A stretch of DNA of 64,000 bases, from the NCBI RefSeq assembly GCF_964204645.1, contig NC_134028.1, forward strand, positions 2,666,001 to 2,730,000. Reading direction: 5' to 3'. This stretch comes from Tubulanus polymorphus. Its lineage: Eukaryota; Animalia; Nemertea. The translations under genes and the position numbers were made by a program. Positions 21,942 through 49,964 of the stretch are shown here, one piece after another (position 1 is the stretch's first letter; every line of letters begins with the position of its first letter). Below the pieces are notes generated by a model. It was not told the origin of the DNA, made no database searches, and saw only the letters and a list, made by a program, of their open reading frames with translations.

Positions 21942-22055
21942 ATGGATGGCGAATTGAATGTGATCACAAACGGTCGCGATGGATACATGACTATGATTGG
22001 ACGTGATGAGCAGAAAAATGCTACGGTATTGTTTGATGAAAATGCAATTCACAAG
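21942..22055 (+). CDS. Rab26/37 alternative first coding exon 1B (MDGELN...DENAIHK)
   Basis: ATG plus 38 codons ending AAG|gtgagc, phase 0; joins exon 2B to give IHK-TILVGD, parallel to ACK-VMLIGD in isoform A. Confidence 0.75.
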
Positions 22056-25000
22056 GTGAGCCATCGATATCGAATGCGTGTGCTAGAAAATCACTTCTTT
22101 GCAAGTGTAGATCATGTAGATAAGTCATAAATGCCCCTAAAAACACGAGTGTACATGGGCCAGAATCTCACTTAAAACAGTCACAAGATCAAAAGGTTTT
22201 TTTAAGGAAAGTTCATGATACTAAAACGTCACCCACTCGCTGATCCATCAACAGCGATGATCAAAGGAAATTTCATCATGGTTTTAGTATCGTACGGTCG
22301 ATTCAGGGTCGTCTGAACATCGCTCATTCCGATAAAGTTATGTTTAAAAGCTCGTCCATCCAGGCTTAGACAAGTGGAGACTCGTCGGATTCTGTCTGTA
22401 TACTCCATTAATTTAATTAGCATCATACATCGGTTGATTCATGGATCGAGACATCTCATCTCGAAATGCAGGTTTCGTATCGCGGCCGAAGGAAGTGGCG
22501 GCACACTTGAAACGAATTGAGATGAATTTGAGCACGTGGCTCTCGCGTGTGGAATACATTTTCTGGAAGGTTTAAATGGAAGGTTTTTTAGGTTCAAACG
22601 CCATGGATCATTCTTCCACTTTCAGGAATGTCGTATGTCGTTCGTTATGAAATGAAACGATGAATAGGGAGATCTTTAGCCATACGAACAATTACCTCGT
22701 GGTTATGTGCACGGCATGATGCTGGTACACGGCAAAAGCTGCTTTGAATCGTGTTTTGCGTCTGGTTGACGCTTCAAAACGCCAGCTTTTAAAAATGCAT
22801 GGCAATCTTGGCGATTTTTTATGGGAACGTACAGTCATGAACCATGATGTTGAAATAGAACTAATTCCAATGCGACCAGGAGCACAACGTTTAGCATCCA
22901 ATAGCTAATCTTTTTGTTGTAATTTCTTCTGGCAATTACTCCGAAGTTTGCAGTATATTTCTAAAAGGTTTTCAGAGCCAGTGATCTTTATGAAGGGACC
23001 CATACACTTCCGAGAAATAGCCTTCTTTGAATGGAAACGTTTGGGGACGGTTAATCTGTAGAGCCGTATCACTGATGCATATGTGTGGAATTTCTTTCTA
23101 TTTTCCTCTGATTCTATAGTAAAGGTCGTGGTATGAGATACTCGTATAAAGTTACCCTATTCGACGTTAAAGCTTGTGAAGTGTAAGGTACGGTTTTAAG
23201 TTTACGTTTTTCAAGTGTAGATAGCACCAACCTGCTCTAACATACCCGTAATGAGCAAAATTGTCTGACCGAATGCGTGATATCGCATATAGGGTTGGGC
23301 AAAGTGAAGTGCTATTATCATTGGGACTTTGTGTAAATGTCACCGAAAGGACCCTAAATCAACGTTTCACCAGAGGAAATGAATATACACGAAGGCTCAA
23401 AGTTCAATAAACATTGGTATATCATCAGAATGAACACCTTTTTGAATCAATGAATCCAAACTAAGTCATTACTTGCGCGTTTCATTTGCCTCCGTGACAA
23501 ATATTAGATTGCTTACTAATGAACGAATCGGGATCGAGACGTAGCCAATGTTTTTTTTTATGATATTAGTTTAGGCAGAAATCTGAGCTTCTGAAGTATT
23601 TCAATTTCCAGACACTTGTAGAATTTCCTAGCCGTCCCCGTTATTAATTTTATCGGTGATGGAGAAGACGCCGAGTGCGCAGTGAAAATGAGAGACATAT
23701 CAGGCTTTATTATGTGACACAAGATGATAAGTTCACTCGGGCGTGGTTGGCGATAACAACGCAAATGGAATAAAAATGAAAATCATATCAACGATGAATT
23801 TATACGTTTGTTATTCTAAGTGTGGATTAGAAATGGTCACGTAAACTGTTGTTATGATTAATGTCACCTTGTGCTAGAACTCTTTAATTGATTCCACAAT
23901 TATGAGCATCACCTCCGACATAACATTGAGTATCAGAATGACCCAAGACGCTTTGATTATCACCAGTATCCATAATGGTATAGTTCATGCTCATTGTTTG
24001 ACATAATTTCTGTTGGACCTGGAACGGAAACCATGTTTCAAGAGTTTTCGAAATCTCCTGTGTCGAAGTACGCTATTCGTTCATGGCCAGCACTGACCTT
24101 AGCTATAGGAGAATATATGACAAAACTCTTATCAGGTTTTGGAGTTGGGGGATAATCGTTCGGTGCTTTCATCGCCTGAAATCAAAGAAATGGTGATTGA
24201 GCAGCAAAAGACGGTAAACCTAAATGAAGTTGATGAGCGCCTGCCACATGAGAAAACTATACAACGAAGCAAACGCTACCGGTAATGGTCGTTTTGGGAC
24301 TATTAGGAATTGAATAGTTTGCCGCCTGATTTTAAGGAGATTGAAGACTACTTCAGCGTCGCGCAGTTAGATGAAAATTCGCCAAAATCTCCATCAACAC
24401 CGCAGCAACTGTAGATCAAGAGCTCAACGATAGACTCGCGTACATCGTGCATCAGACTGTATAAAGTGAACGATGCAATAAAGGTTCTTTTCGGCGTCGG
24501 TGGCGACAAACAACCTGCCGGCCATCGCGGTTTGTATGTAGATGTATGCAAAGCTGACTTTACCAGATCGATACCAAAATCGATACATTTTACGTCATTT
24601 CCTCAATAGAGTATCGTGATGAATAATATCCGATACCATATCAGTGCTATAAAATTACTTCGTCCATTTCAAACAATCTCCTATTATTATGGATTGGCAT
24701 CTGACAACAATACGGTGTTGTTCTTCTGGTTGTTCTGGCACATGGTACTGCACTTTCGTTTAAAAATAACATCTACATTTACTCTTTTTAAATTGATATT
24801 TTGGCAAGATAGATAGATCTCGGATTCATTAACGATGTGGGGCTATTTCGTTCCGATTCATTTGTTCCTTTCACCATGTTACATGCCCCAAACGATGCAG
24901 TGACATCATTGCCGCAATACGTCGAATACGTTACAACGTCTGAGTTCCCTCGTCTTGATGTGTCATGTATAGAATGCATCTTTTCTGTAGTTACCAGGGC

Positions 25001-49000: not shown

Positions 49001-49964
49001 TTAGAGCGGTGAAAAATTATTTCACTTTCAAGGGAATTTCTATGATGAATCTTATGCATTATGCATATTATGCATATATTTTGTTAGCATATCTATAACA
49101 TATATCCGTCTTTCCGAAAAAACCGCTTAAGTTTTCTCTAGATTTCTATTTAGTTCAGCTAAACATGAGAGAATTCCATGCAGTGTATTATTGTTACTGA
49201 ACTCAGTGGTTTTTCGATTTCTAGATTCATGTTCTCTCTGTCTTGTAGGGGTTAAATGCAAACTTAAGGCTTCTATACTATACCATTTTACAGGCAAAAC
49301 TAGCAATCGACAATACACAAATTTTTTATTCATCATAACCAATCCTTTAGATGATCTCAGCTTAAATAGATTCGGTTACTAGGTCCATTTTTATCCATAT
49401 CGATATTGTCTCTTCCTATACGTGTATGGTATATGAGCTGTGTGGTCATTGAGGAGTTTATGCAGACATATCTGTAATTGAGCATATCGCGTTCAGTGTT
49501 TTGGGTTCCATCATTAACATGGCTGCAGCCTTGTATAACTGTCAAACGTATTTGGTAAATTATTAACGACGAATGTTCAACGCTTCTGCCTTAAATAATG
49601 TGTTTATTGTTCAGGGATTTCAAGCAGAAACTCACGGCATGTTAAGAGGGCGGATAAATGACTTTGTCGAAAATTATTCCATGAAAGTCATCTTCGTTTT
49701 CGTGTTCATATTTCATTCTTATCTCAGCACCGAGCGAGTTTCAATTTCGCATTCAATTTTTCGTCATCGGTGAAAATGAGAAATTGTCGCGCGGTTCCCC
49801 GAGCCGACGAAGAAGACGACGCAAATCGCATATTTTATCATTCTCTTGTTTGTTTCTCTCGCAGAGATTTGAAAATGAAAAAGACGCGATCGCCAAACGA
49901 TCCGAAGTTCAGCGTAGCCGATTACATAGAACAAGAAAAGAAGACCGGAAGCTGCTGTAGTTAA
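21942..49964 (+). CDS. RAB37: Rab26/Rab37-family small GTPase, distal-start isoform B (228 aa)
   Basis: Exons 21942-22055, 28664-28774, 37393-37434, [40594-40660 or 44199-44265], 45519-45571, 46985-47107, 48444-48520, 49865-49964. All GT-AG and phase-compatible. Motifs: G1 GDSGVGKT, G3 WDTAGQE, G4 GNKSD, G5 ETSAK, C-terminal SCCS prenylation motif. Probably co-orthologous to vertebrate RAB26 and RAB37. Confidence 0.85.
28664..28774 (+). CDS. Rab26/37 alternative P-loop/switch I exon 2B ([37 protein letters not shown])
   Basis: tttcag acceptor, gtaaga donor; 111 nt, same length and phase as exon 2A; intact P-loop. Confidence 0.93.
31323..31463 (+). CDS. Rab26/37 alternative first coding exon 1A
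   Basis: 47 codons ending YYDFACK|gtcggt, matching the YDxxxK lead-in to Rab beta-1. Confidence 0.85.
31323..49964 (+). CDS. RAB26: Rab26/Rab37-family small GTPase, proximal-start isoform A (237 aa)
   Basis: Exons 31323-31463 (MSATKP...EYYDFACK) and 36131-36241 ([37 protein letters not shown]), then the shared exons from 37393 on. FKDGAFL and [12 protein letters not shown] are diagnostic of Rab26/37. Confidence 0.93.
34260..35321. repeat. ~1.06 kb pure polypyrimidine tract: (TC)n with a central CCCCTCT/CCCTCT segment
   Basis: No purines on the + strand. TC dinucleotide at ~34260-34862, C-rich 6/7-mers at ~34863-35150, then TC again. Lies in the intron between exons 1A and 2A. Confidence 0.97.
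36131..36241 (+). CDS. Rab26/37 P-loop/switch I exon 2A
   Basis: tatag acceptor, gtaagt donor; 111 nt; [37 protein letters not shown]. Confidence 0.95.
37393..37434 (+). CDS. Rab26/37 shared exon 3 ([14 protein letters not shown])
   Basis: tttttag acceptor, gtacgt donor, 42 nt, phase 0-0. Confidence 0.93.
38495..38536 (-). ncRNA. Minimal type I hammerhead ribozyme motif (Penelope-like)
   Basis: - strand: CCAC-CUGAUGA-U-GGCUGUU(aguc)AACAGCC-GAAA-CGUU-GUGG. Stem I CCAC/GUGG, 7-bp stem II, palindromic AACGUU in place of stem III, AAUAAA downstream. Confidence 0.6.
40594..40660 (+). CDS. Rab26/37 mutually exclusive switch II exon 4a ([22 protein letters not shown])
   Basis: Polypyrimidine tract + aatag acceptor, gtatgt donor, 67 nt, phase 0-1. 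Confidence 0.9.
43744..44111. mobile_element. Inverted pair of ~70-bp degenerate repeats (Penelope-like pLTR remnant)
   Basis: 43744-43813 (tgaagagaaaccgacaatttgaag...gacgtttcgactcaatactatga) is the approximate reverse complement of 44044-44111, and resembles the gaagaaatcccaca...acgtttcg flank of the hammerhead copies. Confidence 0.5.
44199..44265 (+). CDS. Rab26/37 mutually exclusive switch II exon 4b ([22 protein letters not shown])
   Basis: ttttttcag acceptor, gtactt donor, 67 nt, phase 0-1; canonical Rab26/37 sequence. Confidence 0.94.
45519..45571 (+). CDS. Rab26/37 exon 5 ([18 protein letters not shown])
   Basis: ttacag acceptor, gtaagt donor, 53 nt, phase 1-0. Confidence 0.94.
46985..47107 (+). 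CDS. Rab26/37 exon 6 ([24 protein letters not shown]...EKLAK)
   Basis: ttgcag acceptor, gtatgt donor, G4 motif. Confidence 0.95.
48444..48520 (+). CDS. Rab26/37 exon 7 ([25 protein letters not shown])
   Basis: tttcag acceptor, gtatgt donor, G5 motif, ends in phase 2. Confidence 0.95.
49615..49645 (+). CDS. Candidate alternative terminal exon ([10 protein letters not shown])
   Basis: tgtttattgttcag acceptor. Spliced in phase 2 to exon 7 it reads [14 protein letters not shown], paralleling R-D-L-K-M-K-K-T of the main last exon. Short, so it could be chance. Confidence 0.35.
49865..49964 (+). CDS. Rab26/37 terminal exon ([33 protein letters not shown])
   Basis: ctctcgcag acceptor, F-x-V-x-D-Y tail typical of Rab26/37, di-Cys prenylation motif. 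Confidence 0.93.

What the first reader, a model, noticed from the sequence alone, without database searches (positions are those of the whole stretch)
21942..49964. Combinatorial Rab GTPase: one gene with swappable switch I and switch II modules
Seen: two complete alternative 5' modules (exons 1B+2B and 1A+2A) splice onto shared exon 3, followed by two homologous 67-nt exons (4a/4b) and shared exons 5-8. Established: switch I, interswitch and switch II form the effector/GEF/GAP/GDI surface of Rabs. Inference: the locus can make at least 2x2 GTPases that differ precisely at effector-binding surfaces. This is paralog-like diversification by internal exon duplication rather than gene duplication. 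Promoter choice may be coupled to exon 4 choice (non-canonical 2B with 4a, canonical 2A with 4b; the non-canonical copy lies upstream in both pairs).
Basis: partly seen in the sequence, partly recalled or inferred. Interest (0 to 1): 0.85.

Follow-up and report, generated by a model that had tools for sequence, protein, structure and literature searches.

The report
Rab26/37 gene with two swappable switches
A ribbon-worm Rab26/37 gene carries two copies of the exon for switch I and two of the exon for switch II, so it likely makes four versions of this secretion-control protein with predicted different partner-binding faces; the first pair is already known from humans, while the second is shared with molluscs and a brachiopod and I did not find it described.

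Summary
The exons are real at the stated coordinates, and all four 5'-module x exon-4 joins are open frames of 228 or 237 aa. The 1A forms are identical to public proteins named Tubulanus polymorphus Rab37-like X1 and X2, so the window is very probably from that nemertean. The 2B/2A pair (P-loop, switch I) is the published bilaterian RAB37 tandem-exon substitution, already read as a partner-surface swap (PMC8373072). The 4a/4b pair (switch II, two residues apart here) is the less known part. Exon 4a is spliced in a public contig (2A>3>4a>5), the pair shows purifying selection (pS 0.64, pN 0.06), both types are annotated in 16 lophotrochozoan species and all four combinations in 6 mollusc species. 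The Arg/Lys type appeared in no named non-lophotrochozoan among 421 fetched proteins. The proposed promoter-exon 4 coupling is contradicted. A third first exon was missed. Transcription of 1B-2B and of 4b was not seen directly here, and no function was tested. Closest precedent: RAB6A/A'. Verdict: real, half known, new variant of a known kind.

The parts
21942..22055 (+). Exon 1B, alternative first coding exon (38 aa)
   Evidence: ATG to GTGAGC donor, phase 0; 13 of 36 residues identical to the N-terminus of the abalone B form P0183, E 8e-5. No transcript seen here.
28664..28774 (+). Exon 2B: beta1, P-loop, alpha1, switch I, B type (Gly at the Rab8A D44 position)
   Evidence: 35 of 37 residues identical to macaque, zebrafish and chiton B exons, 37 of 37 to a spider; same 37-aa exon as in human RAB37 ENST00000402449. 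No transcript seen here.
31323..31463 (+). Exon 1A, alternative first coding exon (47 aa)
   Evidence: Found; N-terminus of public proteins P0121 and P0241.
33846..33893 (+).
   Evidence: N-terminus of public model P0240 (isoform X3), GTAAAT donor, phase 0. Predicted model only.
36131..36241 (+). Exon 2A: P-loop and switch I, canonical type
   Evidence: 37 of 37 identical to hemichordate and sea-cucumber proteins; spliced to exon 3 in a contig of run X4.
37393..37434 (+). Exon 3, shared (interswitch, 14 aa)
   Evidence: GT..AG joints on both sides in X4.
40594..40660 (+). Exon 4a: G3 motif and switch II, Arg type (Ile and Arg at Rab8A positions 73 and 75)
   Evidence: Joints 37434>40594 and 40660>45519 in X4, 0 mismatches; in public model P0241; Arg/Lys type in 44 of 421 fetched proteins.
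44199..44265 (+). Exon 4b: G3 motif and switch II, canonical His type
   Evidence: In public models P0121 and P0240; same residues as human RAB26 in PDB 2g6b. No contig of X4 covers it.
45519..45571 (+). Exon 5, shared
46985..47107 (+). Exon 6, shared (NKxD motif)
48444..48520 (+). Exon 7, shared (SAK motif)
49865..49964 (+). Exon 8 coding part, ending in a CC prenylation motif and stop
49965..52500 (+). Long 3' untranslated region (at least to 52500, the end of the stretch laid)
   Evidence: The same 4595-nt X4 contig covers 49862-52500 and has 1327 further letters (table 8).

Best explanation
This is the Rab26/37 gene of a nemertean, with two separately duplicated exon pairs: likely alternative promoters pick the P-loop/switch I exon (2B or 2A), and likely mutually exclusive splicing picks the switch II exon (4a or 4b), which would give four GTPase cores predicted to differ in partner binding. 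Shown: the exons and open frames, splicing of 2A>3>4a>5, loss of frame when both or neither exon 4 is used, and conservation. Inferred: exon 4 choice is independent of the promoter; products with both or no exon 4 are removed by nonsense-mediated decay; exon 2B changes partner binding strongly (14 residues, including Asp to Gly at the Rab8A D44 position, predicted to weaken GDI and some effector contacts), exon 4a tunes it finely (a basic residue on the switch II helix). The 2B/2A pair dates to Bilateria (published); the 4a/4b pair likely arose once in an early lophotrochozoan.
For: Frames and identity to public proteins. Spliced contig with three GT..AG joints, sides 43, 43 and 55 nt. 4a vs 4b: 8 codons differ silently, 2 change a residue; pS 0.64, pN 0.058, Fisher p 9e-6; flanking introns share only 20-22 of 60 nt, so the copy is old and kept by selection. 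4a is nearer 4b (54 of 66 nt) than any other Rab-type match read in the genome (at most 47 of 66). Both switch II types in 16 species of Nemertea, Mollusca (chiton, gastropods, bivalves, octopus) and Brachiopoda; all four combinations in Liolophura sinensis, Haliotis rubra, H. asinina, Babylonia areolata, Mytilus edulis, Octopus sinensis. A fused mussel model (P0191) puts the Arg type before the His type, the order seen here. Both or no exon 4 gives a stop at codon 110-132, 190 to 285 nt before the last junction. Gly at the D44 position in 183 of 186 B exons, Asp in 277 of 277 A exons. Rab8A D44 and I73 contact RILPL2 (PMC7139218, passages); Rab1 D44N cannot bind GDI (10.1101/287516, one passage citing earlier work); Rab27A L84I/F88Y/D91G loses effector binding (PMC3418316, passages), and L84 maps to position 73 by the spacing of I73/Y77/G80.
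Against: No transcript of 1B-2B or of 4b was seen directly in this species; no public B-form protein of this species turned up in the best 120 of 759 hits. The isoform tables are computed gene models, which can enumerate combinations that no single read links. Exon 3 (42 nt) is longer than the 31-letter words of the assembly, so the contig does not prove 2A and 4a on one molecule. The change is only Val>Ile and His>Arg here; Val/Ile is not diagnostic, since gastropods and Lingula have Ile in both exons. No Arg type was seen in 7 heterodont-clam or 6 oyster sequences, so it may be dispensable. RAB6A and A', the nearest precedent, are called largely redundant (PMC7538953, abstract start in listing). 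117 of 421 fetched models hold 2B and 2A in tandem (that search favoured such models), so exon 2 choice may not be strictly either-or.
Confidence: 0.75

Rival explanations
1. Both exon 4 copies are used, but the two proteins are biochemically almost the same; the pair is kept for a regulatory reason (dosage, tissue timing, splicing-coupled decay), not for different partners.
For: Only 2 of 22 residues differ here, one conservatively; RAB6A/A' are largely redundant (listing); some bivalve groups show one type only.
Against: A basic residue at position 75 marks the upstream-type exon in all 44 Arg/Lys-type proteins across four phyla, while the other exon keeps His (Asn in octopods); redundancy would not hold a fixed difference that long.
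Confidence: 0.2
2. Promoter choice is coupled to exon 4 choice (2B with 4a, 2A with 4b), so only two main proteins are made.
For: The non-canonical copy lies upstream in both pairs (sequence). Biased ratios are not excluded by gene models.
Against: The X4 contig runs 2A>3>4a; public model X2 is 1A-2A-4a; 2B pairs with the His type wherever 4a is absent (97 of 97 motif-bearing proteins among the first 103 hits lack Arg) and with both types in molluscs.
Confidence: 0.07
3. Exon 4a or module 1B-2B is a recent or decayed duplicate or an assembly artefact.
For: 1B-2B has no transcript support here.
Against: 4a is spliced with 0 mismatches, silent sites are near saturation while residues are kept, and both exons have counterparts in other phyla.
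Confidence: 0.02
4. The Arg-type exon arose several times independently in different lophotrochozoan phyla.
For: A 22-residue exon with 2-3 variable sites cannot be dated by a tree; PMC8373072 reports such repeated origin for ACOX1 (passage).
Against: Same signature (Ile, Thr, Arg) in four phyla, changes confined to the same exon, and the same order in mussel and nemertean.
Confidence: 0.1

Closest known systems
[quoted passage not shown] 2021, PMC8373072)
   Same: Same 37-residue exon pair, B copy upstream of A copy, dated to Bilateria, flagged with proteomics support, and read by the authors as a surface patch likely to let isoforms bind different proteins (passages and supplementary table rows).
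   Different: The table lists one RAB37 event only; both human isoforms carry the His-type switch II. The second pair and the 2x2 are not there.
RAB6A / RAB6A' duplicated switch II exon (event 172 in PMC8373072; Echard et al. 2000 cited through PMC2174079)
   Same: A Rab gene with two homologous exons for the G3 motif and switch II that differ in few residues; Rabkinesin-6 is the one partner said to tell them apart (passage). The last variable site of the mollusc exons (His vs Asn) lies 15 residues after the catalytic Gln, like Thr/Ala of RAB6A.
   Different: Other Rab subfamily, other exon borders (35 vs 22 residues), dated to Vertebrata, so an independent event; RAB6A has no second swappable module in that table. 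In this nemertean the +15 site is His in both exons.
Vertebrate RAB26 (PDB 2g6b) and Drosophila Rab26 (PMC9813115)
   Same: Best solved structure, E 4e-90; secretory-granule Rab of the Rab3/27/26/37 group (passage).
   Different: His-type switch II only in the sequences fetched.

Membership tests
Rab26/Rab37 subfamily | Best sequence match is Rab26/37, well above other Rabs | tested here: met
   2g6b Rab-26 304 bits vs Rab8A 217 bits; hits named Rab-26 or Rab-37.
Rab26/Rab37 subfamily | Intact G1-G5 motifs and C-terminal cysteine prenylation motif | tested here: met
   Pfam Ras 8.7e-62; motifs in alignment A1.
Rab26/Rab37 subfamily | Role on secretory granules or vesicles | not testable with these tools
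   Inferred from family (PMC9813115 passage).
RAB37 N-terminal tandem exon substitution (PMC8373072 event 171) | Each exon more like its counterpart in other species than like its twin | tested here: met
   2B vs zebrafish B form 35 of 37, vs own 2A 23 of 37; 2A vs hemichordate 37 of 37.
RAB37 N-terminal tandem exon substitution (PMC8373072 event 171) | Same splice sites | tested here: met
   111 nt and 37 residues with the same first and last residues as the human exons.
RAB37 N-terminal tandem exon substitution (PMC8373072 event 171) | Both exons expressed in this species | tested here: inconclusive
   2A seen spliced; 2B lay outside the stretches laid and no loose end showed it.
Mutually exclusive tandem homologous exons (RAB6A/A' type), pair 4a/4b | Adjacent homologous exons of equal length and phase | tested here: met
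   67 nt each, 82% identical, same phase.
Mutually exclusive tandem homologous exons (RAB6A/A' type), pair 4a/4b | Including both or neither breaks the frame | tested here: met
   Early stops in all four such joins.
Mutually exclusive tandem homologous exons (RAB6A/A' type), pair 4a/4b | Each exon found alone in transcripts | tested here: inconclusive
   4a alone in a contig that skips 4b; 4b only through public models X1 and X3.
Mutually exclusive tandem homologous exons (RAB6A/A' type), pair 4a/4b | RNA structure or spacing that enforces exclusion | tested here: not met
   Exons 3.5 kb apart; best flanking hairpin around 4a has z -0.57, around 4b z 1.15. Only local folds were tested.
Mutually exclusive tandem homologous exons (RAB6A/A' type), pair 4a/4b | Isoforms differ in function | not testable with these tools
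   Needs binding or cell tests.
Orthology with the RAB6A event itself | Same gene family and exon borders | tested here: not met
   Different subfamily and borders; works like it, is not it.

The most novel reading that the evidence does not exclude
Lophotrochozoan Rab26/37 is a true combinatorial Rab: both effector-binding switches are chosen independently and cell-type-specifically, giving four functionally distinct GTPases from one gene, and the B forms (Gly at the D44 position, also in a human RAB37 isoform) escape GDI recycling and stay on membranes.
Probability: 0.3. Interest if true: 0.72.

Novelty: new variant of a known kind. Interest (0 to 1): 0.5.

Why it matters
Small GTPases usually diversify by gene duplication. 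Here one gene swaps both switch regions by exon choice, and the second swap has been kept across four phyla, which points to positions 75 and 82 of switch II as specificity sites in a secretory Rab. It also gives a sharp, cheap test for human RAB37: the little-studied B isoform lacks the Asp that Rab1 needs for GDI binding. The gain is moderate, because the larger swap is already published and the isoforms already stand, unnoticed, in public annotations.

Tried and rejected
No RNA holder was listed as such; X4 is taken as RNA only because one contig shows GT..AG joints, and X1-X3 cover introns. Lack of cover on 4b in X4 is not counted as absence, since contigs drop rarer variants. The 2B>3 junction was not tested: a stretch holding both exons would include a 1.1 kb CT repeat. 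A hairpin hiding the 4a acceptor (I4) is not more stable than shuffles. A look-alike acceptor at 41649-41668 is not a third exon 4. Import of 4a from another Rab gene was rejected. The AlphaFold model (mean pLDDT 64, P-loop and switches under 50 in part) was too poor to use and was not searched. Two motif counts failed through faulty patterns and were redone. Literature searches that found no description of the switch II pair: (listings only; open-licence library, most subscription papers missing). Echard et al. 2000 was not held. PMC9714508 (passages) notes tissue-specific RAB37 N-terminal isoforms but no switch II exon. PMC3327705 and PMC5902227 (passages) gave background only. No complex prediction was run. 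Earlier scan notes were unrelated.
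Full report
Observation. A six-frame motif scan and direct reading show one Rab gene on the + strand with two P-loop/switch I exons and two switch II exons. All named junction coordinates are real borders. Exon 1A was located at 31323-31463. With the borders, the four joins of a 5' module with one exon 4 are open to the same stop: 228 aa for 1B-2B, 237 aa for 1A-2A. Using both or neither exon 4 stops the frame at codon 110-132. Only two exon-2-like and two exon-4-like copies lie in the window; in the 268 Mb genome the best matches to 2B and to 4a are these copies.

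Identity. Exon 6 matches a protein named Tubulanus polymorphus Rab-37-like at 100%. Its cluster has three members: X1 equals 1A-2A-3-4b, X2 equals 1A-2A-3-4a, and X3 uses a third first exon at 33846-33893 with 2A and 4b. The window is therefore very probably from this nemertean, and the 4a/4b choice is already in its public annotation, while no B form of this species appeared among the best 120 of 759 hits to exon 2B. The best solved structure is human Rab26.

The 5' pair is known. Exon 2B is 35 of 37 identical to macaque, zebrafish and chiton proteins and 37 of 37 to a spider. Martinez Gomez et al. 2021 (PMC8373072; passages and supplementary table rows seen) list this RAB37 substitution, date it to Bilateria, and say that the differing residues form a surface patch likely to let isoforms bind different proteins. 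Exon 1B also resembles the N-terminus of the abalone B form.

The switch II pair is real and used. 4a and 4b differ at 12 of 67 nt: 8 codons silently, 2 with a residue change; pS 0.64 against pN 0.058. Their flanks are unrelated. Four runs hold the region, none on record as RNA. One contig of X4 (4595 nt, depth 33.4) has the joints 2A>3, 3>4a and 4a>5, all GT..AG, with no mismatch in 4a, and continues through exons 6-8 into a long 3' UTR. This is one contig of one sample, perhaps the data behind model X2, so it is not independent of the annotation; it does not phase 2A with 4a on single molecules.

Conservation of the second pair. Among 421 proteins fetched (371 with a readable motif), 44 have Arg or Lys at the His position. 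All 35 of these with a species name are molluscs, this nemertean, the brachiopod Lingula or the annelid Owenia; 9 have no taxon. Both types occur in 16 species, and all four combinations in 6 (chiton, two abalones, Babylonia, Mytilus edulis, Octopus sinensis). In 8 clusters of hemichordates, sea cucumbers, lampreys, insects, teleosts and tetrapods, 56 of 58 further members were His type and 2 had no motif; only 15 of 154 and 15 of 151 members of the two largest clusters were listed. Seven heterodont-clam and six oyster sequences showed no Arg type; Capitella showed His only and Owenia Arg only, one sequence each. These are protein models, not genome searches, so absence is weak. A fused mussel model shows the Arg exon before the His exon, as here. 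One origin in an early lophotrochozoan is the simplest reading.

Coupling. Biased ratios remain possible.

Mechanism. On Rab8A numbering (alignment, mapped), exon 2 spans residues 11-46 and its switch I changes fall at 38, 39, 44 and 46; exon 4 changes fall at 73 and 75. Position 44 is Gly in 183 of 186 B exons and Asp in 277 of 277 A exons. Rab8A D44 and I73 contact the effector RILPL2 (PMC7139218, passages), and Rab1 D44N is described as unable to bind GDI (10.1101/287516, one passage). I therefore predict weaker GDI recycling and other effectors for B forms. Position 73 corresponds to Rab27A L84, part of a triple mutant that loses effector binding (PMC3418316, passages), but Val/Ile is not diagnostic across species; the constant mark is the basic residue at 75, with His to Asn, Gln, Asp or Glu at 82 in most species but not here. 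Position 82 is the Thr/Ala site of RAB6A/A'; that this site decides Rabkinesin-6 binding is recalled, not read. Exclusion of both or neither exon 4 is most simply enforced by frame loss and decay (inferred); no local RNA structure stood out. All functional steps are inferred.

Open point on exon 2. Both exon 2 copies are phase 0, and 117 of 421 models carry them in tandem, a share inflated by the search. A 1B transcript could thus include both, giving a canonical core with a longer N-terminus.

Novelty. The 5' swap is known; a duplicated switch II exon has a precedent in RAB6A. Verdict: real, partly known, a new variant of a known kind; interest 0.5.

Noticed in passing
window:8376-9347 (-): Last exon of a Polycomb/CBX-type gene: Pfam CBX7_C, E 3.9e-12.
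   Followed up: partly
window:57146-57718 (-): 190-codon frame with a helical-looking exon that recalls a MIF4G-domain protein (recalled; no Pfam hit).
   Followed up: partly
window:34260-35320: CT microsatellite of about 1.1 kb between exons 1C and 2A.
   Followed up: no
window:38390-38640: Very high-copy repeat in intron 3 (summed contig depth about 19,000 in X1, many strand-switch joints).
   Followed up: no
window:50270-50545: Repeat in the 3' UTR with raised depth and GC-rich inverted ends by eye, like a small non-autonomous transposon.
   Followed up: no
L012 (G000:C7) and window:40594-40660: Another Rab gene has a switch II exon with the same acceptor and donor positions as exon 4; a different Rab transcript also cross-mapped on 4a at 90% likeness in X4 (loose ends).
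   Followed up: partly
P0308, P0338 (Lingula): Models that skip exon 2 altogether in frame, so lack the P-loop, yet come with either switch II type.
   Followed up: no
P0141, P0165, P0157 (heterodont clams): One switch II type that mixes the two: His at 75 with Asn at 82; may be a fusion or conversion after loss of one exon.
   Followed up: no
window:2854-3297 (-): 147-codon frame with an N-terminal hydrophobic stretch like a type II membrane protein; no Pfam hit.
   Followed up: partly
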